A stretch of 56,751 bases of DNA from a virus (taxonomy: Duplodnaviria; Heunggongvirae; Uroviricota; Caudoviricetes): positions 1 through 56,751 of IMG/VR virus record IMGVR_UViG_2778261162_000006; one strand, written 5' to 3'. The notes beneath the pieces were generated by a model that had not been told where the DNA came from, made no database searches, and worked only from the letters and a program-made list of their open reading frames with translations. This document shows positions 1,369-54,655 of the stretch, piece after piece. The first letter of the stretch is position 1. Every line of letters begins with the position of its first letter. Both the position numbers and the translations under genes were made by a program.

Positions 1369-1444
1369 GCCGATATAGCTCAGTTGGTAGAGCAGCGCAT
1401 TCGTAATGCGAAGGTCGTAGGTTCGACTCCTATTATCGGCACCA
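1369..1444 (+). tRNA. thrW: tRNA-Thr (anticodon CGU)
   Basis: 76-nt sequence GCCGATATAGCTCAGTTGGTAGAGCAGCGCATTCGTAATGCGAAGGTCGTAGGTTCGACTCCTATTATCGGCACCA with GGTTCGA T-loop and 3' CCA; anticodon CGT by position. Confidence 0.9.
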
Positions 1445-1446
1445 TT
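1399..1446 (+). repeat. attL core: 48-bp tRNA 3' segment repeated at 42647..42694
   Basis: ATTCGTAATGCG...CGGCACCATT read directly at both positions. Confidence 0.85.
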
Positions 1447-37095: not shown

Positions 37096-37509
37096 TTACT
37101 CGCCAACAGCCCACCAACAGTAATTCATGGTAACAGTTGGACTTGTCGAGGTTGTTCTAAAGGCAGAATAAAACCCTGTTAACCCTGGCTCTTCAGTTGT
37201 CATCATAAAACCACGACCACTCCCGGCAGTTGAACCACCATCACCAGAATGTGAAAGCAAGGCAATATCAGCTTTTTTAGGGAAAGGTATATTAAATTCT
37301 ACCCGTAGTGTCTGACTCGCAAGCGTAGGAGACACACGCCCACGACCATATTGCAGGATTTTCCCGTTGGGTAATTTCATCCATCCATCACCACTGGCAA
37401 AAGAGGCCATGTCCGGTATCTGATTCGCCCCTGTCCCTACATTCCTTTTAGCCGCTTCTCCCAAACCAACGTTTATGAAAATGCAGAAATAACGAGCAAA
37501 TGGCATCAT
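37096..37509 (-). CDS. Alternative tail fibre C-terminal segment (silent until inversion)
   Basis: Encodes [24 protein letters not shown], homologous to the junction of the expressed fibre; the N-terminal residues of the ORF lie beyond the crossover and are not part of it. Confidence 0.7.
37429..37479. repeat. Inversion crossover site, right
   Basis: Reverse complement contains GGTTTGGGAGAAGCGGCTAAAAGGAATGTAGG. Confidence 0.7.
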
Positions 37510-37535
37510 TCCTGCTTTTGTCAGGGGGATCTACC

Positions 37536-38090
37536 ATGCTTATTGGCTATGTACGTGTGTCAACAAATGACCAGAACACAGATCTACAGCGTAATGCGCT
37601 GAACTGTGCAGGATGCGAGCTGATTTTTGAAGACAAGATAAGCGGTACAAAGTCCGAAAGGCCGGGACTGAAAAAACTGCTCAGGACATTATCGGCAGGT
37701 GACACTCTGGTTGTCTGGAAGCTGGATCGGCTGGGACGTAGTATGCGGCATCTGGTCATTCTGGTTGAGGAGTTGCGCGAACGTGGCGTTAATTTTCGCA
37801 GCCTGACGGATGCTATTGATACCAGCACACCGATGGGGCGTTTTTTCTTTCATGTGATGGGTGCCCTGGCTGAAATGGAACGAGAACTGATTGTTGAACG
37901 AACAAAAGCTGGACTGGAAGCTGCTCGCGCACAGGGACGAATTGGTGGACGTCGTCCCAAACTTACACCAGAACAATGGGCGCAGGCCGGGCGATTAATT
38001 GCATCAGGCGTTCCTCGCCAGAAGGTGGCTATTATCTATGATGTTGGTGTGTCAACTTTGTATAAGAGGTTTCCAGCCAGGGTTATATAA
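37536..38090 (+). CDS. Serine DNA invertase (Hin/Gin/Pin/Cin family)
   Basis: MLIGYVRVSTNDQ with catalytic Ser; resolvase domain plus C-terminal HTH; adjacent to invertible segment. Confidence 0.9.
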   Translation: MLIGYVRVSTNDQNTDLQRNALNCAGCELIFEDKISGTKSERPGLKKLLRTLSAGDTLVVWKLDRLGRSMRHLVILVEELRERGVNFRSLTDAIDTSTPMGRFFFHVMGALAEMERELIVERTKAGLEAARAQGRIGGRRPKLTPEQWAQAGRLIASGVPRQKVAIIYDVGVSTLYKRFPARVI

Positions 38091-38433: not shown

Positions 38434-38970
38434 TCAACTTTTAAACCATAAGTCATCTCGATAGAGTAGACTAATTTTCGTTGCATCTTTTGATGCTAGA
38501 GTCGTACACTCTCCTTTATCAAACTCATCTAGACTCACAAATGTAAATTCGTCACCATTTTTTTCTTTCGGAAACACCATAAAGACTACTTCGAAAGTAC
38601 AATCACTATACACATTTTTTAAGAATTGCTGAAGTGCTCTATACTTTCCTATTTCACAATCAGTAAGTGTAAAGGAGGTACACCCATCTGTTGAGTGATA
38701 CTTCGCATCTAAAAGAATATAAGAGGATTCGTCAGCGTCAATAATGAAATCGGGGCGTTTCCCCCCATATGATTTCAAGTTTGCAGATAAGGTATTTATT
38801 CCTTGCTCAACATGTTCAAATTTCCACTTGGATTTTTCCAGCCATCTACTAGCATATTTCTCACCATCTTGACCAGCCGTTATAGAGTATTGTTTTCTTA
38901 ATGCGCTGCACATTTCGTCTAAATTTAACATAAATTCCATGTTCCTTTTTTTTAGTATAATTATTAACAT
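38434..38970 (-). CDS. Small PD-(D/E)xK nuclease-like protein
   Basis: AT-rich; motif RPDFIIDADESSYILLDAKYH (PD ... D-A-K, 14-residue spacing). Confidence 0.6.
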   Translation of the reverse strand: MLIIILKKRNMEFMLNLDEMCSALRKQYSITAGQDGEKYASRWLEKSKWKFEHVEQGINTLSANLKSYGGKRPDFIIDADESSYILLDAKYHSTDGCTSFTLTDCEIGKYRALQQFLKNVYSDCTFEVVFMVFPKEKNGDEFTFVSLDEFDKGECTTLASKDATKISLLYRDDLWFKS

Positions 38971-39530: not shown

Positions 39531-42284
39531 CTATTTGATTGCTGCATTGATTCGTTTATATCTTTGGGTAAAGGCCTCTTTGCCACCTTCCATCACTCGG
39601 CATATCTCATCGCGTATGGAAGGTTCTTGAAGACCCCCTTGCGCCACAATTCTGGTTTGACCAGACCGAATATCAAGGGCAATGACGTTTTCCGCGTCAC
39701 CATTCACGACGATGTTAGCGTTGTGCGTGACTACTAAAACCTGCCGTTTTTGTTTGATCTCACGCAATTGCGTCACGATAAGATCATAGATTAAGTGGTT
39801 ATCAAGATCATCCTCAGGCTGATCAAGTATAAGAGGCTCATTGCCATATGAAAGGATAAATGCAAGGAGAGCCGCCGTTTTTTGCCCCGGAGATCCTTGC
39901 TCTACGGGTTTGAAACTCTCGCCGTTCTTGAGGCTATATCTGATATCCAGAGAATCGCCTGGAAACCAGCACTGAATTCGATCTATCTGTTCCGGAGTTA
40001 GCCCCTGAATGAGGGATACAAAACGTCGATCTTTGCAGGATTCCACCGCCATAGTATCGTTTTCATGGATTGCAAGTAGCGATGATTTTATTTTCTCAAT
40101 TTTATCATCCATAGTATTGGATTGGTCTTGCGTTAAATAAGCCAGCAAGCCCTCATCCCCGTCAACAACTCCAATGTCGCGGTCAAATCCGCCACCACTG
40201 CGGCCGATCAGGTTACGGAATTCTTCCTCAACCGTAATCTTGTTTCCAAACGGAATGACATTGATCTGTACATATGAATTGCCGACGAGAGTATCCTTGA
40301 GAAAGTCCTCACGAAGTTTGGTTATCAATGCTCGATGCTCATGGAGTTTGACCAAGTATTCTTCCGCGCTCTTCTGATGCTGCGCAAGAGTTTCTCTCTT
40401 TTTGTCGAATCCCTTGAGCTTATCTTCGAAATCTTGTCGCTGCTTAACCAGAACACCATATGCAGATGGATCACCTGCGTCTGCTGCGCTGAGTTGACCG
40501 AGGAGGGCGTTGTATTCATGGCTCGCCGCTGTAATTCTTTTCGATATTCCCAAGTCTGATCGAGTTTGATTCCATGAGTTCTTCACATCATCAATCCGCT
40601 GCGCGATCGAGTTCATCTCTGTCTGAAGCTTCTCAAACGTCGCACGGATGTCCTTGATGGTATCGAAGAGTTCTTTGTCATCCGCATTCCCAATGTCGAA
40701 ATATTGTAAATCCAATTCTGCTGGCAGTAGGCTTCCAGAAATATCTCGGACCTGTTCGGCGGAATCCTCCCAAGTCGTTACCCAGGAGTCCATAGCCTTA
40801 CTCTGGTTCTGTCTGAGTTGGTAAGCCTTAAGGACATCCGCGTGGCCCGCCTTTTCAAAAACATCGAGTTTGCGTTTGACGTCTTCAAGCTGACCTTTGG
40901 TTACCGATTCTTCCTGAAGCCCAGCCTGAACTTCACGCTCTTGGGCGCGAAGCGAGAGATATTTGGAAACCAGTTCATCCCACTTAAGCTGCCAATCACG
41001 ATGATTGACCTCCGGGGCATCATCGACAACCTGCAAGAGTGCTTGGGGATGCTTTGCCAATTCGAATATCTGTTTCTGGCTGTAAATCCTGACAGGAAAT
41101 CGTTGTGCTATGTCTCCCTCGGAATCACACCAGACTCCGGGAGCGGTCTCTTCCTCGATGCTGTATATGTCGTCGGTATTAGACCAGGTGATTCGGAAAC
41201 GGCCACCGTCTTTTCGAAAGCCTACAGTTATTTTCGTGGAATCTTTTAACAGCCCTTCATCTTGGCGGTCTTTCGAAGTTTGACTGTATTTGGTAAATTC
41301 CTTTTCAAGGCTCTTGGGGATTTCTCCCTTTCGTTTAAGAGCAATCCGCAGGAATTCCAACGAAGTCGATTTCCCAGTGCCTCGTCCACCAATGATAGTG
41401 TTGAGCCAGGGGTTCAGTTGACAAGTTAAAGATTGCCCTCGTCCTAAGTACTTCGCATCATCAACCACGATACTTTCGATGGCAAGTTGTCCATGGATAT
41501 TTGGGTCACCAGTGAAGTTGTCCGACCGCTTCAGTGAAAGAGCCCCATCAACGAGCGCCAGCCGTAATCCGTCATAAGATGGCTCCGACATTTTTACCCA
41601 AGTGAAATGGCTACCCGGGTAGCGTTGATTTCCGGTACCGGACGGATGATGGGAATCGGTTCCAAGAATCTCTGCCCAATTCAAATTCTTGCCAATATAG
41701 AGCTGCGGTTTTGCTTTAGCAAGGTCCGTTACCTCCATAGCAAAAACACATTTGTTGTCAAGCACCTGCTCTAGTGTGTTGCCCGTACAGACCGTAAAAA
41801 GTCCGCTAGCCTGATCTACATGAGCAGGTATTGCAAGTCCTCCTGACCTAGCAATTTCGTCGATCACCTCAACTGCTGAGCATTCAGAGCAGCCGTCGCT
41901 CTTTCCTTTGGTGCCGCGATACCTGACCGCACCAAGCAGTGAGTCGATATCAGAGGTTGTCTTGTCTTCGCCGAAAATGGCCAGAATATGGATATTCCCC
42001 TGAACAGTAAGCTCAACACCTGGGAATAAGTAGAGTGGTCGATAATCTTCATGACTCTCAGATGCCAGTTCCTTGAGTGCCTGCTTGAGCGGATCAATCC
42101 AAGCGCCTGAATTATGGTCCGTGACAGCGACACAATCGATGCCTTGTCGCATGTAGTTGAGCAGCCAATCTTTATGAGTGATCTGCATATACTGGGCCTG
42201 ATTAGGGCCTTTTCCATAATCGTCCGATGCCGGAGTGTGATTATGGAAGTCGAATTTCCACCACCGAGAACCAATCCAGTTCAT
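39531..42284 (-). CDS. PHP phosphoesterase fused to SMC/Rad50-like ABC ATPase with coiled-coil (Ppl-like defence protein candidate)
   Basis: N-terminal FDFHNHTPASDDYG, VAVTDHN, IPAHV, GTDSHH PHP motifs; Walker A GGRGTGKST; signature-like SPGQKTAALLA; Walker B LILDQPEDDLD; H-loop VLVVTHN; long E/K/Q-rich insert between Walker A and B. Confidence 0.75.
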   Translation of the reverse strand: MNWIGSRWWKFDFHNHTPASDDYGKGPNQAQYMQITHKDWLLNYMRQGIDCVAVTDHNSGAWIDPLKQALKELASESHEDYRPLYLFPGVELTVQGNIHILAIFGEDKTTSDIDSLLGAVRYRGTKGKSDGCSECSAVEVIDEIARSGGLAIPAHVDQASGLFTVCTGNTLEQVLDNKCVFAMEVTDLAKAKPQLYIGKNLNWAEILGTDSHHPSGTGNQRYPGSHFTWVKMSEPSYDGLRLALVDGALSLKRSDNFTGDPNIHGQLAIESIVVDDAKYLGRGQSLTCQLNPWLNTIIGGRGTGKSTSLEFLRIALKRKGEIPKSLEKEFTKYSQTSKDRQDEGLLKDSTKITVGFRKDGGRFRITWSNTDDIYSIEEETAPGVWCDSEGDIAQRFPVRIYSQKQIFELAKHPQALLQVVDDAPEVNHRDWQLKWDELVSKYLSLRAQEREVQAGLQEESVTKGQLEDVKRKLDVFEKAGHADVLKAYQLRQNQSKAMDSWVTTWEDSAEQVRDISGSLLPAELDLQYFDIGNADDKELFDTIKDIRATFEKLQTEMNSIAQRIDDVKNSWNQTRSDLGISKRITAASHEYNALLGQLSAADAGDPSAYGVLVKQRQDFEDKLKGFDKKRETLAQHQKSAEEYLVKLHEHRALITKLREDFLKDTLVGNSYVQINVIPFGNKITVEEEFRNLIGRSGGGFDRDIGVVDGDEGLLAYLTQDQSNTMDDKIEKIKSSLLAIHENDTMAVESCKDRRFVSLIQGLTPEQIDRIQCWFPGDSLDIRYSLKNGESFKPVEQGSPGQKTAALLAFILSYGNEPLILDQPEDDLDNHLIYDLIVTQLREIKQKRQVLVVTHNANIVVNGDAENVIALDIRSGQTRIVAQGGLQEPSIRDEICRVMEGGKEAFTQRYKRINAAIK

Positions 42285-42646
42285 TTGTACCGTTCCTATT
42301 CTTTTTATTAGTGCGTCTGCGCGAGGTCGCTAACTTTGCAAACTAGATTACCTTGTAAGGTTGGAAAGTCCAACGTCCGCTGTTCGTCATAGCAGACATT
42401 CACTACAGTTATGGCAGAAAGGTATGCATGTTGAGGTGGGAAAGTCGTGAAAGAAAAGAAAACTGCTGCGCTGTTTGTCGTCACGTTTATCTTCATTGGC
42501 TATGCAAGTCATAATACAAGGTGGGACAAAACTGAGACACATAAGGCCTCACAATGGCTTGCAAGGCTTTACATGTTTTGATGTGGTGGGACGTGTGAGC
42601 GCAGTGTTGATGGGGTAATGCTTTGAATTAGAAGCGGATTCTTATA

Positions 42647-42694
42647 ATTCGTAATGCGAAGGTCGTAGGTTCGACTCCTATTATCGGCACCATT
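42647..42694 (+). repeat. attR core (copy of tRNA-Thr 3' end); also the tRNA-proximal att of the downstream satellite
   Basis: Identical 48 bp to 1399..1446. Confidence 0.85.
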
Positions 42695-42858: not shown

Positions 42859-44073
42859 GTGAAACTCAATGCCCGTCAAATAGACACTGCCAAGCCAAAA
42901 GAGAAGGCTTACAAGCTGGCTGATGGTGGTGGTCTGTATCTCTTGGTAAAACCTAGTGGAGGAAAATATTGGCGCTTCAAGTATCGTGTAGCTGGTAAAG
43001 AGAAGCTGTTAGCACTAGGTGTGTATCCTGAAGTTACCTTGGCTGATGCTCGTGCAAAACGTGAAGAAGCTAAAAGGGGTATCGCTGGGGGTATCGATCC
43101 GATGGAAGCGAAACGAGAGGAAAAGATTGCCCGGGAAACGCAGTTAAACAACACCTTCAAAGATATTGCCCTTGAGTGGCACAGCAGCAAATTAAAAAAA
43201 TGGTCTGCTGGTTATGCTTCAGACATCCTCGAAGCCTTTAACAAAGATGTGTTCCCTTACATTGGCAAAAAACCAATCGCCGAAATCAAACCACTTGAAC
43301 TGCTGAATGTGCTGCGGCGCATCGAGGGGCGCGGTGCTACCGAAAAAGCCAAAAAAGTGAGGCAGCGATGTGGGGAAGTTTTCCGCTATGCAATTGTCAC
43401 TGGACGTGCTGAGTATAACCCTGCACCGGATCTCACCAGCGCGATGCAAGGTCATGAATCTAATCATTATCCTTTCCTCACAGCCAAAGAATTACCTGAT
43501 TTTTTCAAGGCATTGTCCAGTTACTCAGGAAGTGCATTGGTTGTTATGGCGGCTCGTTTACTGATTATCACCGGTTTGCGGACTGGCGAACTGCGCGGTG
43601 CATTATGGGATGAAATCGATCTCAACAAGGCTATCTGGGAGATACCTGCTTCACGGATGAAAATGCGTCGCCCTCATGTAGTGCCTTTGTCTGAGCAGGC
43701 TCTTTCGCTTATTGGGCAGATTAAAGAACTAACTGGCAATTATCCGCTTATGTTTCCCGGCCGTAATGATCCAAGGAAAACAATGAGCGAGGCTAGCATA
43801 AACCAAGTATTTAAACGCATCGGCTATAACGGAAAGGTTACTGGTCATGGCTTCCGGCACACTATGAGCACCATTTTGCATGAGCAGGGCTATAACACCG
43901 CGTGGATAGAGACACAGCTTGCGCACGTCGATAAAAACTCAATTCGTGGCACATACAACCATGCGCAATATCTGGATGGGCGGCGGGAAATGCTTCAGTG
44001 GTACGCTGATTATATGGATTCGCTCGAGCATGGCGGAAATGTGGTGCATGGTGAGTTCGGAAAATGCGGGTGA
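42859..44073 (+). CDS. P4-type tyrosine integrase
   Basis: 404 aa; GTG start after GGAGG; GHGFRHT and catalytic Tyr region; N-terminal arm-binding domain. Confidence 0.9.
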   Translation: MKLNARQIDTAKPKEKAYKLADGGGLYLLVKPSGGKYWRFKYRVAGKEKLLALGVYPEVTLADARAKREEAKRGIAGGIDPMEAKREEKIARETQLNNTFKDIALEWHSSKLKKWSAGYASDILEAFNKDVFPYIGKKPIAEIKPLELLNVLRRIEGRGATEKAKKVRQRCGEVFRYAIVTGRAEYNPAPDLTSAMQGHESNHYPFLTAKELPDFFKALSSYSGSALVVMAARLLIITGLRTGELRGALWDEIDLNKAIWEIPASRMKMRRPHVVPLSEQALSLIGQIKELTGNYPLMFPGRNDPRKTMSEASINQVFKRIGYNGKVTGHGFRHTMSTILHEQGYNTAWIETQLAHVDKNSIRGTYNHAQYLDGRREMLQWYADYMDSLEHGGNVVHGEFGKCG

Positions 44074-44201
44074 CTGGTTGAGTATACAGTAGTAGACTTT
44101 GAGCGACGAAAGAAAAGGCTGTGTCTAGGGTCGCTCCCGAAAATCCGTACACCTCGACGGACTGGTACAGCCACTACAGTAGAGGACGCTGAGGTGTGCG
44201 T

Positions 44202-44999
44202 ATGATTGATATTCATGCCGAATTAAACGAATACAAAAAAGATTTTATTTCTTTACGTGAATTTCTTGAGGTCGTGCTTAAGGTCGCTGGTGATGATTAT
44301 GATGTTTCAGATGTCATAACTTGGATACTCAGGAGAATAAGCGGAGAACATATCCGCCTGTACACAGTAAATGAATTTAAGCTGTTGGAATCTTTTTGTA
44401 ACCCGTATCGGGATGAATTTGATAATGATGTTCTTTATAGAAATCTGAATGCGGTTCGGAAACGTGGTTGTTTACCTGGTGAGAGGGATGAAAATGGTTT
44501 TCTGGTGTCCGGTTATTGGGAAGATCCCGAATTTGAGAACATTGGATTTATAAGGGGTGAAATTTTCGCAATTTTTCCCGATGTCCTTGACGCGTTAACG
44601 AAGCTGGAAGGCGCTAACTCTTCTGAAAATGACGAGGCACAAGGACGCGATATTGAAAAGAAAGAGTTGCGTACAGAGGATGATTTATTATCCCAAATCG
44701 CAATGCTGGAAAAAGAAAACGCAGAGTTAAGGGCAAGGATAGAGCAGTTAGAGCAAGAGCGCCCGATACACTTATATAAATACTGGGATAAAGACCCATT
44801 AGCTAAGGCTATTGAGATTAGAAACAGAGAGTGGGCCAATTACGATCCAGAAAATGATTTTGCCACCAGGGGAAATCAAGAAGCGATAACCAGGGAGCTT
44901 AAGCAGTGGGGGGCAAGTAATGCACTTGCAACGCTCATAGAGAGGACTGCCTGCCCTATTAACCGAGACAACAGCCAAAAGAACGCAAAGCCGGATTAA
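44202..44999 (+). CDS. Hypothetical protein with central coiled-coil
   Basis: ORF; segment LLSQIAMLEKENAELRARIEQLEQE. Confidence 0.55.
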   Translation: MIDIHAELNEYKKDFISLREFLEVVLKVAGDDYDVSDVITWILRRISGEHIRLYTVNEFKLLESFCNPYRDEFDNDVLYRNLNAVRKRGCLPGERDENGFLVSGYWEDPEFENIGFIRGEIFAIFPDVLDALTKLEGANSSENDEAQGRDIEKKELRTEDDLLSQIAMLEKENAELRARIEQLEQERPIHLYKYWDKDPLAKAIEIRNREWANYDPENDFATRGNQEAITRELKQWGASNALATLIERTACPINRDNSQKNAKPD

Positions 45000-45013
45000 C
45001 GCACCATACCGCA

Positions 45014-45160
45014 TACCCTGAGGGTGATTTACTGTTACCCTGAGGGTATTTTTTTATCTTCCCCGTCAATTTTACCATCACCCTTAGGGTAGATTTCCTC
45101 CCGATTACCATCACCCTTAGGGTAGATTTCCTTCCGGTAACCATTAGGCCTGAGGGTATG
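45014..45160. repeat. Direct repeat array with CCCT(G/T)AGGG cores upstream of alpA
   Basis: TACCCTGAGGGT x2, TACCATCACCCTTAGGGTAGATTTCCT x2, CCTGAGGGTATG. Confidence 0.7.
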
Positions 45161-45226
45161 AAAATATTCGTTATTTCTGTGCCATGATTACCTCGTCAAA
45201 TTGAGTAGACGTTATGAGGTAAATAT

Positions 45227-45424
45227 ATGTCAAATACGCTTATTCGTTTAACAGAAGTTCAGCGTAGAACTGGATATAGCAAGGCATGGATTTATCGCCT
45301 TATGGGGCAAGGTAAATTTCCTGCATCAGTTAAAATTGGCTCGCGAGCTATTGCTTTCGTTGAGAGTGAAATTGACGAGTGGATTAATCAGCGTATTGCG
45401 GAATCACGCGGAACAGCTACCTGA
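45227..45424 (+). CDS. alpA: AlpA-family transcriptional regulator/excisionase
   Basis: 65 aa; LTEVQRRTGYSKAWIYRLMGQGKFP HTH typical of AlpA. Confidence 0.85.
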   Translation: MSNTLIRLTEVQRRTGYSKAWIYRLMGQGKFPASVKIGSRAIAFVESEIDEWINQRIAESRGTAT

Positions 45425-45501
45425 TTAAATGGCTACGGGGCTATTGCCCCCAGCTATCCACCAGCAAATAAAAGTAACTTAATTCGATAGCAGGAGTTTT
45501 T

Positions 45502-46302
45502 ATGAAATTTCCAAAAACGCCCGTACAGGGGCGGGGCTTCGTTCGGCCTGAAAACCAGAATCTGCAAAATTTCGGCGAAATTATCCCGGTTATTTCCGGC
45601 ATTATTGGCGGGTGTGAAACCAATATTGTTAGCGCCAGAGCGTTGCATAAGGCGTTAGGTGTAGGTCGCGTTTTCCGTTCGTGGATCAAGGGGCGCATTG
45701 AAGAATACGGCTTCACGGAAGGCGTGGATTATGAGGTTGTTGAATATTTGAGCCGACCCGATCCGGTGAGCGCAAAATCTCGCCAGCAAACAGCTCTTGA
45801 GTACATCATTACCGTGAACATGGCAAAAGAACTGGCGATGGTCGAACGCACCGAACAGGGCCGCGCCGTTCGCCAGTACTTCATCAAATGCGAGGAGGAG
45901 CTACACAAGGTAGCGCCAGTGCGTTCCGCAGCTTTACGCCGGGAACTGAAAGCCCGTATCACCGTTGCCAGCTACTTTAAGCCAATGTGTGCCGCGCTGG
46001 AGGCGTACCGGGCTGAACTGGGTAAAAACACGCTCCAGCACCATTACACCACGGAAGCCAATATGCTGGCGCGTATCGTGCTGGGTGGCATGACTGCAAA
46101 ACAGTGGGCGCAGGCGAACGGCATCACAGGCGAACCACGCGACCACATGAGCACATTGCAGCTTGAGCACCTTTCTTACCTTGAGCAGAGCAATATCACG
46201 CTGATTGAGTTAGGCCAGGACTACCACCAGCGGAAAGCTGAATTAATTCGTCTTTCGCAGCGTTGGTTAGCCCGTCGCATGGAGGAAAACAGCCATGTGT
46301 AA
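45502..46302 (+). CDS. Phage antirepressor (AntA/KilAC-like)
   Basis: 266 aa; recollection-based family match. Confidence 0.6.
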   Translation: MKFPKTPVQGRGFVRPENQNLQNFGEIIPVISGIIGGCETNIVSARALHKALGVGRVFRSWIKGRIEEYGFTEGVDYEVVEYLSRPDPVSAKSRQQTALEYIITVNMAKELAMVERTEQGRAVRQYFIKCEEELHKVAPVRSAALRRELKARITVASYFKPMCAALEAYRAELGKNTLQHHYTTEANMLARIVLGGMTAKQWAQANGITGEPRDHMSTLQLEHLSYLEQSNITLIELGQDYHQRKAELIRLSQRWLARRMEENSHV

Positions 46303-46968
46303 CGCTCTGACCGTTACAAAAAGAGAAAGCGCCCCGTTGCCGGAGCGCCTTTGTGAACAAATCGCTTACTGCGCCATATTGTTTACTGCCTTTCGGGCAG
46401 ATTATAGCGTTGTGGTCGCACAGAGTGAAGGCGCTGATCACTGTTACTACAGTACGCCAGAAATGCAGAATATTTTGCTGCAAAATGCCGTTAGCCACGC
46501 TGTCCGGAAAGCAAAAAATTTTGCTGGTGGCGCGACTGATGCGATTTTGTCAGGTCACCAGGTGCTGATCAATCTGATGTCTGATTTCGTTCTGGATAAA
46601 ACAAAGGCGACTGCAGAGGGCCACCAGTGGGAAAGCTACACACTTGAACACATTGCCAACAATGCCAGATTTGCGGCTGGTGGGCAATGTGATCAGTGTG
46701 CTGGCTTGCTGGTGGGCTATTCATGCTCTTTAACATTGCCATGCCGCGATGTTTTCCAGGTATGCGATCCCATTTTTGTGCGCCTGTACTCTTTAAGGAA
46801 TTGCTCAAGGGCAAAAGCACATGGCGCGAATCTTTCTGATTCATGCTCTATCTTTCTGCGCCGTCTTTTCCGTGCCGGTGATGGTGTATTGGTTGATTCT
46901 TTGTTGGTCATTCTGTGTACCTGTAAAGCAATGCGCCGGAGTTCCTCACACCACGGCGATGATAGTTA

Positions 46969-47274
46969 TTATTCTGATTCTTTGGCCTTGCGGCGCTGGA
47001 GTTCTTCACGTGCGACGGTGACGAGCTGCCCGATCTCCTCGGCAGCTTTGACTCCGATTTTTTCCACCTGCGCCAGCGCATCGAGCGAAGAAACTAGGGG
47101 ATTTTCTCCGCTTCCTTCTGCCTGGCGGCGGGCGATCTCACCGCGCATGGCGGTTACTATGAATCCGGCGTTGCTTTCACCGTCCAGTTTTACGGATTCC
47201 ATGCCTTCAAAAGCATCATGTGGGATACGAATTGAAATCTGTTTTGATTTGTCGTTGATAGTGTTTTTTGCCAT
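46969..47274 (-). CDS. Hypothetical regulator-like protein (101 aa)
   Basis: ATG after GGAG; divergent from 47462 gene across operator-bearing intergenic region. Confidence 0.55.
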   Translation of the reverse strand: MAKNTINDKSKQISIRIPHDAFEGMESVKLDGESNAGFIVTAMRGEIARRQAEGSGENPLVSSLDALAQVEKIGVKAAEEIGQLVTVAREELQRRKAKESE

Positions 47275-47294
47275 GTGCATTCTCCTAAACAAAA

Positions 47295-47375
47295 GATGTG
47301 ATTCAGTATACACAAAAAAGAATCACAAAAAATACTTGACCTGTGATTCAGTTAAATTTAATTTAAATCACACCT
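47295..47375. promoter_or_regulatory. Operator-like sites in divergent promoter region
   Basis: TGTGATTCAG x2 direct, GAATCACA and AAATCACAC inverted. Confidence 0.55.
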
Positions 47376-47461
47376 CAGTAAGAGGATGTAAACGACAACG
47401 CCCCGAACTGTTTGCGGCAGTAGCGGGGCGTCTAACCAAACCGTTAAATGAGGTAACGATT

Positions 47462-47827
47462 ATGGCTGGAACACAGCATACCCAAACTCACCCTAAATTT
47501 ATATACACCTTCCTGGCGGTGCACCGTGATTGCATAGCTGACGGTAAAAACACTGTACACGTAGCTGCTGATACGCTGGTTGATGCCTGCGAGATGCTCA
47601 ATGACATGGGCTATATCTCGGCAACATGGAAAGGGCGCGAAGAAAACACGCTGTTTATTCAGAAATGCGAGAACAATTTTATCTGGCGTTTTATCGCCCT
47701 GAGCACAGCACAACCGCGCGTAATTCACATCGAGGCCACCAGCGAACAGGAAGCACGCCAGCAATCCCCTGATGGCTGCGTGATGGTATTCGCTGCCCGT
47801 ATTCGCCAGGAGGTGGAGCATGTGTAA
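47462..47827 (+). CDS. Hypothetical protein (121 aa)
   Basis: ATG after GAGGTAACG; part of the long composite ORF 46295..47827. Confidence 0.55.
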   Translation: MAGTQHTQTHPKFIYTFLAVHRDCIADGKNTVHVAADTLVDACEMLNDMGYISATWKGREENTLFIQKCENNFIWRFIALSTAQPRVIHIEATSEQEARQQSPDGCVMVFAARIRQEVEHV

Positions 47828-48044
47828 TGTAACATGGCCTGATGCAGCGGTAGACGCTATCAAAACGCTGATGGATTCACTTATTGAGATTTCAGCTATC
47901 GCTGGTGTGGCGCATAAACACGCAGTCAGAGAATCAGAATGCATCTCCCATTATTTAGCATTTGTGCAGCTAAAAGCCGATCAGGCACTGGATAAGGCCG
48001 GAAAAATTATCATGGCTGATGTGCAGGAGGTGCACCATGCATAA
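47820..48044 (+). CDS. Small hypothetical protein (74 aa)
   Basis: ORF, overlapping junctions in an operon of small genes. Confidence 0.4.
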   Translation: MCNVTWPDAAVDAIKTLMDSLIEISAIAGVAHKHAVRESECISHYLAFVQLKADQALDKAGKIIMADVQEVHHA

Positions 48045-48402
48045 TTCGGCTATTTCTGAACTTAACAGCATTCAGTTTGATGAGAAATTTACCGGGCAGC
48101 TACTGGTCAATGTAGAGAATGGACGCGTAGTAAGTAATTATCACCTGCCGGATGGTGCAATTGCCGGAAGCGTTGAAGCATTCCTGGCACTGGCGGAGCG
48201 TGCGCGACTGATTAAGCCGTCAACGTGCCATCACGATGATGATCTGCGTTTTACCGGGTGTATGGTGAGTCACTACGAAAACGGCGTTGAAGTATCCCGC
48301 GAACGTCTGTGTGATGATTACTGTTTCGGCACATTGCCGGAATTTATCGAATTGCTGACCAGTTGCGGTTATCAGGTCATTCAGGGGGGGAAACATGCGT
48401 GA
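48037..48402 (+). CDS. Hypothetical protein
   Basis: ORF; N-terminus paralogous to 48621..48821. Confidence 0.5.
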   Translation: MHNSAISELNSIQFDEKFTGQLLVNVENGRVVSNYHLPDGAIAGSVEAFLALAERARLIKPSTCHHDDDLRFTGCMVSHYENGVEVSRERLCDDYCFGTLPEFIELLTSCGYQVIQGGKHA

Positions 48403-48628
48403 TGATCGTTTTAATTCCCTGAAACGGGAATTTGATGGCGCACCGGAAGATGCAGCGGGCGCATTGTTGAGCGTTGCTGACATGATGAAAGCTGCATATT
48501 TTCTTATCAATACCAGTGGCTACAAGTCAGAGGGTGAAATGATTCTTAGTATTGCGTCGGACTATGCGGAATATGTGGCAGAGACGCGTTACAGAAGAAA
48601 ATTCACGGAGGATGTAAGCCATGCATAA
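48395..48628 (+). CDS. Small hypothetical protein (77 aa)
   Basis: ORF with overlapping junctions. Confidence 0.45.
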   Translation: MRDDRFNSLKREFDGAPEDAAGALLSVADMMKAAYFLINTSGYKSEGEMILSIASDYAEYVAETRYRRKFTEDVSHA

Positions 48629-48821
48629 TCATGAAGCGCATGTACCCGTAGTGCTTAATGTGCCAGATGATTTCACCGGACGCGTACTGGTTTACCTGGA
48701 TAAAGGGAAAGTGAAATCACAATGCCGATTGAAAAGTAATGAGATTGTTGGTTCTCCTGAATTTTTTTCTGAACTTTGTATTCGTGCGGAAATAAAACCG
48801 GAACTGCTGACAGGAAAATAA
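48621..48821 (+). CDS. Small hypothetical protein (66 aa), paralog of 48037 N-terminus
   Basis: MHNHEAHVPVVLNVPDDFTGRVLVYLDKGKV vs MHNSAISELNSIQFDEKFTGQLLVNVENGRV. Confidence 0.45.
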   Translation: MHNHEAHVPVVLNVPDDFTGRVLVYLDKGKVKSQCRLKSNEIVGSPEFFSELCIRAEIKPELLTGK

Positions 48822-48825
48822 AACC

Positions 48826-49116
48826 ATGAAAAAGAAAAATTCTGGCTTTACTGCCAGCGGCCTCTCTCGGCCTGAAATCCGCCCCGGTGATATTTTCCGG
48901 GACACCAGACGCGGGGGACGGGTGGTTATTCGTCACGTTATGCCAGGCAATATCACCTACCGCCGTGAGGCTTACGAATATGACTGCGTAATGCCGCGCC
49001 GTCAGTTTGAGCGTGATTTTATTCTGGTTGAAAACAAACAACAGGCGGTGGCGAGACGTGCAGCCACGAATATTAAAAAAATCCGGGCAATGTTGGTTGC
49101 GGGAGGTAAGAAGTGA
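48826..49116 (+). CDS. Hypothetical basic protein (96 aa)
   Basis: ORF upstream of primase. Confidence 0.5.
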   Translation: MKKKNSGFTASGLSRPEIRPGDIFRDTRRGGRVVIRHVMPGNITYRREAYEYDCVMPRRQFERDFILVENKQQAVARRAATNIKKIRAMLVAGGKK

Positions 49117-50885
49117 AAAACGCACCGAATTTAAAATATCAGCCGAAGGATAAATTCACCGAGGTAATCATTTTTGCCGGGACGGACGCTTACTCCCATG
49201 CTCAACACTGGATTGAAAGCGAAGGACGAAAACACGGCGATAACGTACCACCTGTTTACCTGGGGCCAAAGCAACTGGCAGACCTGGTGAATATCCGCAT
49301 TGTCGACGATGAACGCCGCTTTGCGCGTGTCTATCTCGCGGGGGAGATCGAACCAATCCAGATCAATGCTATCGCTGAAAAACTGGCGCTGGCTGGCGTA
49401 CAGGAGGCGAAATTATACAAAGGCATCACCGACCGGGAACCGGAGAACTGGCGCGATTACCTGCAACGGATCCGCGAACAGGCAGAGCGCGGGGATATTC
49501 TGTCAGGAAGGACTGAGAAAAAACACAAAATCTCTCTTTCCAGAATGGCGGATAACGAGCGAGCTTCACTTTTGGCTGAATGCTTTGAGGAAATAGCTGT
49601 TCACCCTGGTAACAATTTTGCTTATGCATACTGTTCTGGAGTGTGGGAAAAAATATCTGATATGGAGTTGAGTCGTAAAATGGTATCAATTTACGAAAAA
49701 AACAAGACAAATTTCAGTAAGCGGGCAATTAGTAATGCGGTTGATGCTTTAAAAATATCTGTACCCGTAATGAGAGAACAGAGTGACACCATAATACCTT
49801 TTGAAAATGGAGTTTATGACATAACAAGTGGTAGATTTTTACCTCATTCACCAGAGCACTGGATCACTTCGCATAATGGAATTTATTATACGCCACCTGC
49901 GCCTGGTGAAAATATTCATGACCATGCGCCCCATTTTCATCGTTGGCTGTCACATGCAGCAGGATACGATTCATCAAAGATGAAGCGGATATGTGCTGCT
50001 CTGTTTATGGTTTTGGCTAATCGCTACGACTGGCAATTATTCATTGAAGCAACTGGCGAAGGTGGAAGTGGTAAAAGTATGTTTACTCAAATTGCCAGAA
50101 TGTTGGCGGGTGAGCAGAACACCGCAGGCAGTGATATGAAAGCGTTAGATGATGCTGGTGGACGTGAGCAACTAGTTGGTAAAAGTCTGATTATTTTACC
50201 GGACCAACCTAAATATTTTGGTGAAGGTAATGGTATTAAAGCTATAACAGGTGGGGATCCTCTGCAAATCAACCCGAAATATGAAAAAAGATACACCACT
50301 GTCTTACGCTCAGTTGTTTTGATAACAAATAATAAACCGATGGTTTTTACAGAAAGAGCGGGAGGTATTTCACGCCGTAGGGTTATTTTTCAGTTCAATA
50401 ATCCGATAGCGGAAGAAAACAAGGACACATGTTTACCCAAAAAAATTGCAGCGGAAATTCCGGTAATAGTCCGTAGGCTGTTGGTAAATTTTTCAGATCC
50501 CGAAAAAGCAAGAACATTACTGCTCGAACAACGTGATGGTGAAGAAGCAATGGAAGTAAAACGCCATACTGATCCGCTATATGCTTTTTGTAACCATATT
50601 GTCGAACTTGGTGAAGCTGTAGGAATGTTCATGGGAAACCTGAATATATATCCAAGAGCCCCTCGAATTTATCTTTACCATGCATATCTTGCATATATGG
50701 ATGCTTATGGTTTCGATAAGCCATTAAATCTAACTAATTTTGGCAAAGATTTCCCAAAAGTGATGAAAGAATATGGGGCTGAGTATAAGAAGGCAAAGAC
50801 CAATGTCGGAATGCGCTACAACATGGAGCTGGCTGACAGTGCTAATGAATGGTTACCCGCTGTGCCAAAAATCCATGAAAAGTGA
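49113..50885 (+). CDS. P4 alpha-like primase/helicase
   Basis: 590 aa; GTG start after GGGAGGT; Walker A EATGEGGSGKSM; followed by iteron-rich origin. Confidence 0.75.
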   Translation: MKNAPNLKYQPKDKFTEVIIFAGTDAYSHAQHWIESEGRKHGDNVPPVYLGPKQLADLVNIRIVDDERRFARVYLAGEIEPIQINAIAEKLALAGVQEAKLYKGITDREPENWRDYLQRIREQAERGDILSGRTEKKHKISLSRMADNERASLLAECFEEIAVHPGNNFAYAYCSGVWEKISDMELSRKMVSIYEKNKTNFSKRAISNAVDALKISVPVMREQSDTIIPFENGVYDITSGRFLPHSPEHWITSHNGIYYTPPAPGENIHDHAPHFHRWLSHAAGYDSSKMKRICAALFMVLANRYDWQLFIEATGEGGSGKSMFTQIARMLAGEQNTAGSDMKALDDAGGREQLVGKSLIILPDQPKYFGEGNGIKAITGGDPLQINPKYEKRYTTVLRSVVLITNNKPMVFTERAGGISRRRVIFQFNNPIAEENKDTCLPKKIAAEIPVIVRRLLVNFSDPEKARTLLLEQRDGEEAMEVKRHTDPLYAFCNHIVELGEAVGMFMGNLNIYPRAPRIYLYHAYLAYMDAYGFDKPLNLTNFGKDFPKVMKEYGAEYKKAKTNVGMRYNMELADSANEWLPAVPKIHEK

Positions 50886-51165
50886 ACAGTGGTGAACAGT
50901 GGTGAACAGTAGTGTTCACCTCTAAAAGCTGCGTCATTACTGGATTCATCGACGAAATGAACGCCGTGAACAGTTTCGGCTAAAACTTTTAAAACGCATT
51001 GTAACTTGTAACAGTGAATCATTTTCACTGCAAATTAAATTCTATAGGGGGTAACTGTTCAACTGTTCACTGAAACAAAATAACCATATGATTTTAAACT
51101 AAAAAACATAGTGAACAGTTATTAAAAAACTGTTCACTAACTATTCACGACTGTTCACAATCAAA
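50881..51165. repeat. Origin-like iteron cluster (P4 ori/crr-like)
   Basis: GTGAACAGT x3 tandem, GTGTTCACC, and many further TGAACAGT/ACTGTTCA copies. Confidence 0.7.
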
Positions 51166-51233
51166 ATGGAATAGTGTGAATAATTGGAATTTTTATCACG
51201 AAATTATAGAAATAGAGTTGCAAAGGGGGGGGT

Positions 51234-51581
51234 ATGTTTCTTGAAGCTATACCCAAAAATATTTCGCCAGCGGTTCAGGGTTGGTGGGCAAAATTCAGGA
51301 ATGATAATGGCAACGACTGGTATAGTCCGATTGCAGCATGGGCGATTTGTGATGTGTTTTATTCTGGTGATTCAGAAATTTATTCTGAAATATTACCGAT
51401 TCTTACTGGTGAGTATGGAATGGCACCGTATCATCAGGAAGATGGTTTTTACGAATGCATGTATTTGCCAAACACAAAATTCATTCTTTCTGATGAACCT
51501 GGATCATTTGCGTGGTATCCGGTAGATGAAAGTGCCGGGCATGAAACAATCAGTAAAAACGATGGGGCAAAGCATGACTAA
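51234..51581 (+). CDS. Hypothetical protein (115 aa)
   Basis: ORF with ATG after G-rich RBS. Confidence 0.5.
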   Translation: MFLEAIPKNISPAVQGWWAKFRNDNGNDWYSPIAAWAICDVFYSGDSEIYSEILPILTGEYGMAPYHQEDGFYECMYLPNTKFILSDEPGSFAWYPVDESAGHETISKNDGAKHD

Positions 51582-52104
51582 GCTGACCATTAACAGAAAA
51601 CCGAAAGGCATTTACGGCACGCCGCAGAAAACGACGCAGGCGGCACAGGAGCAGGATAAAACCACGTCGGCGCATAAAGTGATGCCCGGTAACCAGAAAG
51701 CGCAGCAGAAGCCCACAGGGGCGACACCGTGGCGGCATATGACCAAGCGCCAGCGCAAAAACCGCAGGCGCATTAACCGCCTCACTGAGTTGTGGCCTGA
51801 ATTATTCAGCCGGGAAGCACCGAAGCCGCTTAAGGTGGGGATATTCGACGACCTGATGCAGGATCTCGCCGTCAGGGGGCTGGCATTCGGTCCAGGGGCA
51901 TTGCGTGCGACGCTGGCATCTTATGCACAGTGTCCGCGCTATTACCGCGCCTTAATGGCTGGTGGGGTACGCTACGACCTGAAAGGCCAGCCGTGCGGCG
52001 AGGTGACACCACAGGAACAACAGGACGCAGAAACGCGGCTGGTGGCGCTGAATGAGAAGCGCAAACGTCAGCGCCGGGTAGCAAAGGAGAAAACAGGCGC
52101 ATGA
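51574..52104 (+). CDS. ProQ/FinO-family RNA-binding protein
   Basis: RRRINRLTELWPELF...PKPLKVGIFDDL...ALRATLASYAQCPRYYRAL matches the FinO-domain pattern. Confidence 0.7.
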   Translation: MTKLTINRKPKGIYGTPQKTTQAAQEQDKTTSAHKVMPGNQKAQQKPTGATPWRHMTKRQRKNRRRINRLTELWPELFSREAPKPLKVGIFDDLMQDLAVRGLAFGPGALRATLASYAQCPRYYRALMAGGVRYDLKGQPCGEVTPQEQQDAETRLVALNEKRKRQRRVAKEKTGA

Positions 52105-53381: not shown

Positions 53382-53445
53382 AAAACGTGCTGAGTTCAGC
53401 CCTGCCGGATTTGGCGGGGCTTATTGCTTATAACCGGATAACATT

Positions 53446-54117: not shown

Positions 54118-54123
54118 GTCATA

Positions 54124-54651: not shown

Positions 54652-54655
54652 CATC

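What the first reader, a model, noticed from the sequence alone, without database searches (positions are those of the whole stretch)
39531..42284. 917-aa PHP phosphoesterase fused to an SMC/Rad50-like ATPase at the prophage right end
The N-terminal ~250 aa carry the His/Asp motifs of a PHP phosphoesterase. The rest is an ABC-type ATPase whose Walker A and Walker B/H-loop are separated by about 500 residues of charged, coiled-coil-like sequence, as in Rad50/SbcC/SMC. The gene is AT-rich cargo between the invertase and attR. From memory, this architecture matches the single-gene Ppl defence family (PHP plus ATPase); I could not verify that here. The nuclease-ATPase fusion with a long coiled-coil suggests DNA-end or structure sensing coupled to cleavage.
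Basis: partly seen in the sequence, partly recalled or inferred. Interest (0 to 1): 0.75.

Follow-up and report, generated by a model that had tools for sequence, protein, structure and literature searches.

The report
Ppl-like PHP nuclease–ATPase defence gene
A prophage at the thrW tRNA site carries, at its right end, one large gene that fuses a PHP-type nuclease to a Rad50/SMC-like ATPase; it is a distant (30% identical) relative of the known anti-phage protein Ppl, so it is an expected kind of prophage defence cargo and not a new system.

Summary
Window 39531-42284 (-) encodes a 917-aa protein with a complete PHP metal site (res. 7-253). The rest is a Rad50/SMC-type ABC head, split by about 240 residues of coiled-coil helix. 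The gene lies 363 bp inside attR of a 41-kb prophage at tRNA-Thr(CGT).

PADLOC's Ppl model matches end to end (524 bits). NCBIfam places it in the TrlF family (651 bits, cutoff 350) but below the Ppl equivalog cutoff (631 vs 1000). It is 30% identical to validated plasmid Ppl.

The family is large (1,299 50%-identity clusters). All PHP ligands and ABC motifs are invariant. So is an unusual Walker B, D-Q-P-E, with Gln at the catalytic-Glu position.

In 45 of 77 genomic loci the gene is followed by a TrlG-like gene (AlbA_2 + HATPase_c_4). Some pairs sit inside BREX or type I R-M operons. The window's clade (81-100% identity across several phyla, dN/dS about 0.1) is always solo and always in mobile or defence contexts.

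Most likely function: a single-protein anti-phage exonuclease gated by NTP levels and DNA 3' ends, as published for Ppl. This is inferred, not tested.

Verdict: a new member of a known kind, of moderate interest.

The parts
39531..42284 (-). CDS, 917 aa: PHP nuclease fused to a Rad50/SMC-like ABC ATPase (Ppl/TrlF family, solo form)
   Evidence: ORF. PADLOC Ppl 523.7 bits, full length. NCBIfam TrlF family 651.4 bits, cutoff 350. Identical to RefSeq 'TrlF family AAA-like ATPase'.
41526..42266 (-). PHP domain (res. 7-253) with ligands H14, H16, D56, H57, E91, H99, H155, D210, H212
41019..41486 (-). ABC head, N-terminal lobe (res. 267-422) with Walker A GGRGTGKST (299-307; window 41364-41390) and Q-loop Q403
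   Evidence: AAA_23/AAA_15. Rad50/SMC N-terminal matches.
40290..41003 (-). Helical coiled-coil insertion (res. 428-665). Turn at about 520-533, with no CxxC zinc hook
   Evidence: AF2 secondary structure, pLDDT 80-95. The sequence has no Cys in res. 500-545. Foldseek matches to SMC/JetC/MukB heads with coiled coil.
39561..40271 (-). ABC head, C-terminal lobe (res. 672-908): signature SPGQ 798-801, Walker B/D-loop LILDQPEDDLD 818-828 (window 39801-39833), H-loop H854
   Evidence: AAA_21 29.9 bits. Rad50 3qku, SMC 5xei. Q822 and E824 invariant in 140/140.
42647..42694 (+). attR: 48-bp direct repeat of the tRNA-Thr(CGT) 3' end; right boundary of the prophage that carries the gene
   Evidence: Exact repeat of window 1399-1446. 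tRNA at 1369-1444. Integrase ORF at 1459-2622.
1369..1446 (+). tRNA-Thr(CGT) and attL core; left boundary of the prophage
   Evidence: ARAGORN. Repeat.

Best explanation
The gene encodes a stand-alone anti-phage nuclease of the PHP-ABC-ATPase family, which contains Ppl and TrlF. The thrW prophage carries it as accessory cargo.

Shown here:
- An intact PHP metal site is fused to a Rad50/SMC-type ABC head with a roughly 240-residue coiled coil.
- Every catalytic or nucleotide-binding motif is conserved.
- The family-wide Walker B is D-Q-P-E, with Gln where ABC ATPases have the catalytic Glu.
- The clade has no conserved partner gene.
- The clade is under strong purifying selection.
- The gene is rare and found in mobile or defence-island contexts.

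Inferred by homology to E. coli Ppl, at 30% identity with the same architecture and motifs:
- The PHP domain is a 3'-5' DNA exonuclease.
- At normal NTP levels, nucleotide bound to the ABC head (and to the PHP site) keeps the enzyme off.
- When phage replication drains the NTP pool and exposes DNA with free 3'-OH ends, the protein degrades that DNA and stops the infection.
- The Gln-for-Glu Walker B suggests the head works mainly as a slowly hydrolysing nucleotide sensor or dimerisation switch, not as a motor. This last point is my own inference.
For: Family membership:
- PADLOC Ppl E=2.3e-157, full length.
- NCBIfam TrlF family 651 bits, above the 350 cutoff.
- 30% identity, collinear BLASTP to PGAP-named Ppl.

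Folds:
- AF2 model pLDDT 88.8.
- A family profile hits PHP phosphoesterases and SMC/Rad50 in the PDB.

Motifs are invariant in 140 relatives, including Q822 and E824.

Solo status:
- No TrlG-like ORF in the window, nor in any of 5 genome loci of the >=86% clade.
- None in the Klebsiella, Proteus or Dethiosulfovibrio loci either.

Selection: dN/dS is 0.08-0.16 against clade members at 84-92% aa identity.

Context:
- Prophage att-proximal cargo slot.
- Inside a type I R-M operon.
- In lambdoid prophages at icd.
- Next to ArdC and a T4SS coupling protein, and next to PglZ.
- On plasmids.
- At least 15 of 79 family loci have an R-M or BREX gene within 6 kb.
- Only 17 of 5,426 E. coli genomes carry it.

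Published function of relatives:
- Ppl defends as a single gene and Bas63 gp130 counters it (PMC11482910).
- Ppl is an ssDNA 3'-5' exonuclease released by NTP depletion and 3'-OH ends (PMC12904381; Xu et al. 2026 Mol Cell, cited).
- 'Wukong', another single PHP-ATPase protein, degrades DNA in vitro and needs both domains.
Against: - Neither this protein nor its clade has been tested experimentally.
- It is only 30% identical to validated Ppl and falls below NCBIfam's Ppl equivalog cutoff (631 vs 1000).
- In an NJ tree it groups with TrlG-paired TrlF proteins, not with Ppl. Its trigger and regulation may therefore differ.
- The primary Ppl paper could not be read, so the mechanism is taken second-hand from two citing papers.
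- The family is almost absent from phage collections: none in 50,697 GenBank phages and 28 hits in 2.9 M IMG/VR contigs. The prophage location is thus unusual for the family.
- In Photorhabdus the trl operon has a growth-arrest phenotype, and no role for TrlF itself was shown.
Confidence: 0.7

Rival explanations
1. It is a TrlF-type component that normally works with a TrlG partner (AlbA_2 + HATPase_c_4). In this prophage it would be an orphan, either inactive or dependent on a partner encoded elsewhere.
For: 45 of 77 assessable family loci have a TrlG-like gene immediately downstream, often overlapping. The nearest non-clade relatives at about 50% identity are mostly paired, 7 of 9. NCBIfam names the protein TrlF family.
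Against: The whole 81-100% clade is solo in E. coli, Klebsiella, Proteus, Dickeya, Hafnia, Aliidiomarina, Dethiosulfovibrio and a verrucomicrobial MAG. It still keeps every motif and shows dN/dS of about 0.1. An orphan without function would decay. Its closest sisters in the tree (L020, L055, L026) are also solo. No TrlG-like ORF was found anywhere in the window. Validated Ppl shows that a solo PHP-ATPase can defend.
Confidence: 0.1
2. It acts mainly against other mobile DNA (plasmids, competing prophages or satellites) and not against lytic phages. This would resemble the SMC-like Wadjet or Lamassu systems, which sense DNA topology or ends.
For: The best Foldseek matches include JetC of Wadjet (8q72, 8dk2, 9qxu) and MukB. 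PADLOC gives weaker LmuB and mad3 hits. The gene sits next to a tandem satellite-like island. Wukong eliminated Acr-encoding plasmids when de-repressed.
Against: The gene is itself plasmid-borne in 4 of 17 E. coli carriers. Ppl proper sits on F-type plasmids. No kleisin, JetA/B/D or LmuA-type partners are present. Published Ppl phenotypes are anti-phage.
Confidence: 0.12
3. It is a stress- or temperature-triggered growth-arrest module, as described for the Photorhabdus trl operon. It would serve prophage or host physiology, not immunity.
For: The family name comes from the temperature restriction locus trlR-trlF-trlG. Deleting that locus lets P. laumondii grow at 36 C.
Against: All 32 selected mutations fell in trlG and none in trlF. 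The window has neither trlG nor trlR. The distribution in R-M, BREX, prophage and plasmid contexts fits immunity better. The Photorhabdus phenotype can be read as autoimmunity of a defence system (my inference).
Confidence: 0.05
4. It is a housekeeping SbcCD/Mre11-Rad50-like DNA repair enzyme.
For: Rad50, SbcC and RecN heads are structural matches. There is a weak PHROG 'SbcC-like' hit.
Against: It is present in 0.3% of E. coli genomes, with no conserved chromosomal context and always in mobile or defence contexts. The nuclease is a fused PHP domain, not a separate Mre11/SbcD. There is no zinc hook.
Confidence: 0.02

Closest known systems
Ppl (Gao et al. 2020 single-gene system; E. coli plasmid Ppl WP_000233113.1; mechanism in Xu et al. 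2026 Mol Cell)
   Same: Single polypeptide with an N-terminal PHP domain and a C-terminal ABC/SMC-like ATPase with a helical insertion. The alignment is collinear end to end. The PHP ligands are identical, as is the LDQPEDDLD Walker B. Both are carried on mobile elements beside other defence genes.
   Different: Only 30% identity. It scores 631 bits on the Ppl equivalog model (cutoff 1000; true Ppl 1330) and 524 vs 1827 bits on PADLOC's model. It lies on a separate, distant branch. It sits on a prophage and not an F-type plasmid. Its activity is untested.
TrlF of the Photorhabdus temperature restriction locus (NCBIfam NF045780, TrlF family AAA-like ATPase)
   Same: It passes the family cutoff (651 vs 350 bits) and RefSeq gives it this name. 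Its closest relatives outside its own clade are TrlF proteins paired with TrlG.
   Different: There is no trlG and no trlR next to it. I could not obtain the Photorhabdus TrlF sequence, so I did not measure direct identity.
Wukong (CRISPR-supervised single-protein PHP exonuclease + ATPase, bioRxiv 10.1101/2024.12.27.630466)
   Same: The domain order is the same and it is a single gene. It degrades ssDNA, blunt, overhang and fork substrates in vitro, and both domains are required.
   Different: Wukong is about 1026 aa and sits under CRISPR-Cas transcriptional control.
Mre11-Rad50 / SbcCD
   Same: Both have a Rad50-type ABC head with a coiled-coil insertion coupled to a metal-dependent nuclease that acts at DNA ends.
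   Different: Here the nuclease has a PHP fold and is fused in cis, whereas Mre11 is a separate calcineurin-fold subunit. The coiled coil is much shorter (about 240 aa) and has no zinc hook. The Walker B is DQ, not DE. The gene is accessory, not housekeeping.
Gabija GajA / OLD-family nucleases
   Different: OLD/GajA use a Toprim nuclease at the C-terminus and have a DEPE Walker B. GajA needs GajB.
PrrC/RloC-type guardians embedded in type I R-M loci
   Same: Some family members sit inside a type I R-M operon (hsdM-hsdM-X-hsdS-hsdR in Dethiosulfovibrio). This is the same nesting as the classical prr locus (my own knowledge). Both have a Rad50-like NTPase head.
   Different: PrrC/RloC are anticodon nucleases with a different effector domain. 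The window copy has no adjacent R-M genes.

Membership tests
Ppl (broad sense: PADLOC / Gao 2020 architecture) | Full-length match to the Ppl profile | tested here: met
   PDLC02208, E=2.3e-157, 523.7 bits, res. 4-912 on model positions 3-892 of 894. The model does not separate Ppl from TrlG-paired TrlF proteins, which score 480-493 bits.
Ppl (broad sense: PADLOC / Gao 2020 architecture) | N-terminal PHP domain with a complete metal-ligand set | tested here: met
   H14, H16, D56, H57, E91, H99, H155, D210 and H212 are present and invariant in the family. Fold confirmed.
Ppl (broad sense: PADLOC / Gao 2020 architecture) | C-terminal ABC/SMC-like ATPase | tested here: met
   Walker A, Q-loop, signature, Walker B, D-loop and H-loop are all present. 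Rad50/SMC fold matches.
Ppl (broad sense: PADLOC / Gao 2020 architecture) | Single-gene system (no obligatory partner) | tested here: met
   No conserved neighbour across 8 genera of the clade.
Ppl (strict sense: NCBIfam equivalog NF042955, orthologue of the validated protein) | Score at or above the curated cutoff of 1000 bits | tested here: not met
   631.3 bits. True Ppl scores 1330.5. 30% identity.
Ppl (function) | Protects against phage; 3'-5' ssDNA exonuclease inhibited by NTPs and activated by 3'-OH ends | not testable with these tools
   Known only from the literature on E. coli Ppl.
TrlF family AAA-like ATPase (NF045780) | Score at or above the curated cutoff of 350 bits | tested here: met
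   651.4 bits, model positions 2-943 of 944. True Ppl also passes at 476.5 bits, so this is the broad family.
TRL operon (Photorhabdus trlR-trlF-trlG) | Adjacent TrlG (AlbA_2 + HATPase_c_4) and TrlR genes | tested here: not met
   An HMM search with a TrlG profile finds nothing in the window. The downstream ORF is an unrelated 178-aa protein.
SbcCD / Mre11-Rad50 | Separate Mre11/SbcD nuclease subunit, zinc-hook CxxC at the coiled-coil apex, housekeeping distribution | tested here: not met
   The nuclease is a fused PHP domain. There is no Cys in res. 500-545. The gene is in 17 of 5,426 E. coli genomes.
Wadjet / Lamassu (SMC-like defence complexes) | Partner subunits (JetA/B/D or LmuA/C) | tested here: not met
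   There are only sub-family-level LmuB hits (E=8e-8) and no partner genes nearby.

The most novel reading that the evidence does not exclude
The window protein may not be 'a Ppl'. It may represent a second, independently solo lineage derived from a widespread two-gene TrlF-TrlG module. That module is not a named defence system in PADLOC 2023 and is repeatedly nested inside BREX/Pgl and type I R-M operons. On this reading:
- TrlFG is an uncharacterised defence system, or an effector module for BREX or R-M.
- The Photorhabdus 'temperature restriction' phenotype is its autoimmunity.
- The solo clade, which has spread at 81-92% identity across at least five phyla, has dispensed with the TrlG regulator or sensor, so its trigger may differ from Ppl's.
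Probability: 0.3. Interest if true: 0.6.

Novelty: new member of a known kind. Interest (0 to 1): 0.35.

Why it matters
For this window, the result labels the prophage's att-proximal cargo as a probable single-protein immune nuclease. Lysogens may therefore gain phage resistance from it.

More broadly, current tools lump three things under 'Ppl/TrlF': validated Ppl, TrlG-paired TrlF modules (about 58% of sampled loci), and this highly mobile solo clade. Only the first has been tested.

The invariant D-Q-P-E Walker B gives a concrete handle on how an ABC head could act as an NTP-level sensor: compare Q822E and E824Q mutants. The nesting of TrlF-TrlG between pglX and pglZ is a lead for BREX biology.

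Tried and rejected
- Pfam scan for PHP (PF02811): no hit at E<=0.1. The PHP call had to come from NCBIfam, PDB profiles and structure.
- First literature search for 'TrlF' returned only TRLFS spectroscopy papers. A whole-word search found the Photorhabdus paper.
- The primary Ppl mechanism paper (Xu et al. 2026) is not held.
- No Ppl or TrlF structure is in the PDB, by sequence or by fold.
- The first profile search (A1) returned only near-identical sequences. A2 was needed for diversity.
- The small neighbouring ORF as a partner nuclease was rejected. It is absent next to the gene in other genera and on plasmids. It has no PADLOC or NCBIfam hit. There is only a weak RmuC hit at E=0.01. The single-sequence AF2 model was unusable at pLDDT 40. 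It has no relatives in deposited phage genomes.
- Housekeeping SbcCD-like repair was considered and rejected on distribution.
- The promoter and terminator scan around the gene was not above the shuffled background.
Full report
**Observation**

Window 39531-42284 on the minus strand is an uninterrupted 917-codon ORF starting with ATG. RefSeq annotates the identical 2754-nt CDS in E. coli APEC O78 and a dozen other strains as 'TrlF family AAA-like ATPase'. The protein is identical to a cluster seen on 310 contigs.

The N-terminal quarter carries the PHP signature residues: H14-x-H16, D56-H57, E91, H99, H155 and D210-x-H212. The rest carries these ABC motifs:
- a Walker A (GGRGTGKST, 299-307)
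- a Q-loop Gln (Q403)
- an ABC signature (SPGQ, 798-801)
- a Walker B/D-loop (LILDQPEDDLD, 818-828)
- an H-loop His (H854)

**Are the domain calls real?**

Pfam's PHP model does not hit at E<=0.1. Pfam gives only AAA_21 above its cutoff, with sub-threshold SMC_N, AAA_23 and AAA_15. The PHP call is secured by three other lines of evidence.
- NCBIfam's CehA/McbA metallohydrolase domain covers res. 7-250 at E=2.2e-12.
- A profile of 113 diverse family members finds solved PHP phosphoesterases (9etk 9e-10, 3e0f 4e-9, RNase AM 7ug9 1e-8, TM0559 7e-8, EndoQ 8e-5). It also finds SMC, SMC3, SMC5/6 and Rad50 heads.

The model has four parts:
- a PHP barrel (7-253)
- head lobe I (267-422)
- long helices at 428-519 and 534-665
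- head lobe II (672-908)

So the 'coiled-coil' is about 240 residues, not 500. Its turn (about 520-533) has no Cys pair, so there is no zinc hook.

**Genomic setting**

tRNA-Thr(CGT) lies at 1369-1444. Its last 46 bases plus the next two (window 1399-1446, 48 bp) are repeated exactly at 42647-42694. An integrase-sized ORF abuts the tRNA (1459-2622).

The interval between these repeats holds tail and baseplate genes, an invertible tail-fibre segment and a Pin-type invertase at 37500-38090. The gene is therefore the last large ORF of a roughly 41-kb prophage, 363 bp inside attR.

In APEC O78 the flanking chromosome is the pao-yagU-ykgJ region. This is the thrW locus that CP4-6 occupies in K-12 (my own knowledge).

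Beyond attR a second element begins. It carries a P4-type integrase (42859-44073), an AlpA-like regulator, an AntA domain protein, a D5-type primase-helicase, a ProQ/FinO protein and a DUF2213 protein. It looks like a satellite-like island integrated in tandem.

The gene's GC content is 47.5%, against 55% for the prophage structural genes. It is mildly but not strikingly AT-rich.

**Family assignment**

PADLOC's Ppl model aligns over the whole protein (E=2.3e-157, 523.7 bits).

NCBIfam gives two near-equal full-length hits:
- TrlF family, 651.4 bits, above its 350-bit cutoff
- 'anti-phage protein Ppl', 631.3 bits, well below its 1000-bit equivalog cutoff

A PGAP-named Ppl from an F-type plasmid (WP_000233113.1, next to pifC/pifA) scores 1330 bits on the Ppl model and also passes the TrlF model at 476 bits. 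The TrlF model is therefore the broad family, and Ppl is a sub-branch of it.

The window protein is 30% identical to Ppl, collinear from residue 4 to 912 (E=9e-125).

PADLOC's Ppl model gives true Ppl 1827 bits. It gives the window protein (524) about the same score as TrlF proteins that have a TrlG partner (480-493). A 'Ppl' HMM call therefore shows family membership, not orthology.

**What 'TrlF' means**

The name comes from the Photorhabdus laumondii temperature restriction locus, trlR-trlF-trlG. Deleting the operon allows growth at 36 C. All selected mutations fell in trlG, which encodes an AlbA_2 + HATPase_c_4 protein. None fell in the large PHP-type trlF.

**Family-wide analysis**

An exhaustive HMMER search of 1.84 billion cluster representatives finds 1,299 clusters at E<=1e-30. 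Nearly all of the best 150 are full length, at 34-53% identity (one C-terminal fragment reaches 59%).

In an alignment of 140 of them plus Ppl, every PHP ligand is invariant. So are:
- Walker A K305
- Q403
- S798 and G800
- Walker B D821
- H854

Also invariant, in 140 of 140, are Q822 and E824. The family's Walker B is D-Q-P-E, with Gln at the position of the catalytic Glu of ABC ATPases. The best PDB sequence hit to the single protein was PoxtA (7p7q), whose aligned Walker B also reads LDQP. This fits my recollection that this entry is an engineered E-to-Q mutant, which I did not check. I infer that the head binds nucleotide and dimerises but hydrolyses slowly, unless E824 substitutes for the missing Glu. 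This is not tested.

**Solo versus paired forms**

Four relatives at about 50% identity on long contigs are each followed by an overlapping AlbA_2 + HATPase_c_4 gene, that is, a TrlG homologue. In two of the four, the pair sits between a PglX-type methyltransferase and PglZ in a BREX/Pgl cluster.

A scan of 100,044 species genomes returned 572 relatives, of which 79 loci were kept. A TrlG profile finds a TrlG-like gene immediately downstream in 45 of 77 assessable loci. It finds none in the five loci of the window's clade, and none in the window itself.

A seed-based search finds R-M or BREX genes within 6 kb in at least 15 of 79 loci.

TrlG is not a PADLOC system of its own. It hits only a domain fused to a pAgo model.

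In an NJ tree without support values, the window clade and a few solo sisters lie inside a large group dominated by paired proteins. Ppl sits on a separate long solo branch.

**The window's own clade**

Full-length proteins at 81-97% identity occur in the following:
- Klebsiella
- Citrobacter
- Hafnia
- Dickeya
- Proteus
- Aliidiomarina
- Acidithiobacillus
- Dethiosulfovibrio
- Sphaerochaeta
- Prosthecochloris
- a verrucomicrobial MAG

Their contexts differ each time:
- a lambdoid prophage at icd, in two different positions within the prophage (Klebsiella, Proteus)
- inside a type I R-M operon, hsdM-hsdM-X-hsdS-hsdR (Dethiosulfovibrio)
- between a T4SS coupling protein and ArdC (Dickeya)
- directly upstream of a PglZ gene (Verrucomicrobia)
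- beside resolvase, transposase and ParA genes (Hafnia)
- on plasmids

Pairwise dN/dS against the window gene is 0.08-0.16 for the 84-92% pairs. The solo protein is therefore under strong constraint.

In E. coli the gene is in 17 of 5,426 complete genomes: 13 chromosomal and 4 on plasmids. One copy is split by an IS3 element and one is frameshifted.

The gene is absent from 50,697 deposited phage genomes. The family has only 28 hits in 2.9 million IMG/VR contigs, and three of those are this same prophage.

**Mechanism**

What is shown here:
- the fused PHP and Rad50-like architecture
- intact active-site and nucleotide-binding residues
- solo status
- purifying selection
- mobile or defence context

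What is taken from the literature on relatives:
- Ppl is a single-gene defence, and T7 makes small turbid plaques on it. Bas63 gp130 counteracts it (PMC11482910).
- E. coli Ppl is described as an ssDNA 3'-5' exonuclease. NTPs bound at both the PHP and NTPase domains inhibit it. NTP depletion together with 3'-OH ends made by phage homing endonucleases activates it (PMC12904381). The primary source is Xu et al. 2026, Mol Cell 86:180, cited and not readable.
- An independently named single PHP-ATPase protein, Wukong, degrades several DNA substrates in vitro. It needs both domains and is toxic when over-expressed.

The most likely account is that the window protein works the same way. It would be an NTP-gated, DNA-end-dependent exonuclease that destroys replicating phage DNA. 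I put about 0.7 on 'stand-alone anti-phage nuclease'. I put roughly half of that on the trigger being the same as Ppl's.

**Rivals**

- An orphan TrlF that needs TrlG is unlikely, given clade-wide solo conservation and low dN/dS.
- An anti-plasmid or anti-MGE role, as in Wadjet, cannot be excluded. It fits poorly with the gene's own residence on plasmids.
- A Photorhabdus-style growth-arrest role lacks the genes (trlG, trlR) that gave that phenotype.
- A housekeeping SbcCD-like role is excluded by the gene's distribution.

**The neighbouring small ORF**

The ORF at 38434-38970 (178 aa, or 165 aa as annotated) is 34.6% GC. It belongs to PHROG 28481, which has no known function. It has a PD-(D/E)xK-like 'D...LLDAKY' pattern by eye and a weak RmuC hit at E=0.01.

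It accompanies the gene only in the E. coli thrW prophage, not in other genera or on plasmids. A single-sequence structure prediction failed at pLDDT 40. It is not a conserved partner, and 'nuclease' remains unverified.

**Verdict**

Because the very protein is already in RefSeq under a family name and PADLOC would call it Ppl, this is a new, untested member of a known kind.

The more interesting by-products are:
- the split of the family into TrlG-paired and solo lineages
- the nesting of TrlF-TrlG in BREX and R-M operons
- the invariant D-Q-P-E Walker B
- the cross-phylum spread of this solo clade

Noticed in passing
window 38434-38970 (-): A 178-aa ORF (165 aa as annotated in RefSeq) at 34.6% GC, in PHROG 28481 (function unknown). 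It has a weak RmuC hit and a PD-(D/E)xK-like motif. It sits between the invertase and the Ppl-like gene and may be a second cargo gene. It is not linked to the Ppl-like gene in other genera or on plasmids.
   Followed up: partly
window 42859-56751: A second integrative element lies in tandem at the duplicated thrW att site. It carries a P4-type integrase, an AlpA-like regulator (45227-45424), an AntA domain protein, a D5-type primase-helicase (49113-50885), ProQ/FinO and DUF2213. It looks like a phage satellite. Its last 1.7 kb is 33% GC and holds two ORFs (55144-55971 and 55972-56751+) with no Pfam family; one has only a marginal PADLOC hit (PDC-M02B, E=2.4e-4).
   Followed up: partly
L012 7001-11018; L014 7001-11018; L013, L015; 45 of 77 loci among L016-L094: Relatives at 30-53% identity are followed by an overlapping AlbA_2 + HATPase_c_4 gene, a TrlG homologue. 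In L012 and L014 the pair sits between a PglX-type methyltransferase and PglZ in a BREX/Pgl cluster. TrlG is not a PADLOC 2023 system of its own.
   Followed up: partly
L003 4890-15033 (Dethiosulfovibrio): An 83%-identical copy is inserted inside a type I R-M operon (hsdM-hsdM-X-hsdS-hsdR). This is the same nesting as the classical prr anticodon-nuclease locus.
   Followed up: no
window 39801-39833 (res. 818-828): The Walker B reads LILDQPEDDLD. Gln replaces the catalytic Glu in 140 of 140 family members, and Glu is invariant two residues later.
   Followed up: partly
P0099, P0110, P0116, P0122; L017, L018: Full-length copies at 81-88% amino-acid identity (81-85% nucleotide identity) occur in Dethiosulfovibrio, Sphaerochaeta, Prosthecochloris, Acidithiobacillus, Aliidiomarina and a verrucomicrobial MAG. 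This implies recent transfer across phyla.
   Followed up: partly
window 42375-42581: A roughly 207-bp stretch between the gene and attR is 88.6% identical to a segment of phage 21 and many lambda-like phages. Parts of the 4.6-kb query around the gene match more than 5,000 E. coli records, while the gene itself is in only 17 genomes.
   Followed up: no
L001 10231-12984 (UPEC_U013); H87 (O103:H2 PV16-126): Some strains carry decayed copies. One is split into a 'PHP domain-containing protein' and a 'TrlF family' ATPase. Another is interrupted by an IS3-family element.
   Followed up: no
L010 1227-8673 (plasmid pCY708): Validated-type Ppl sits on F-type plasmids, close to pifC and a P-loop NTPase at the pifA position. 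This suggests a small defence cluster near the replication region.
   Followed up: no
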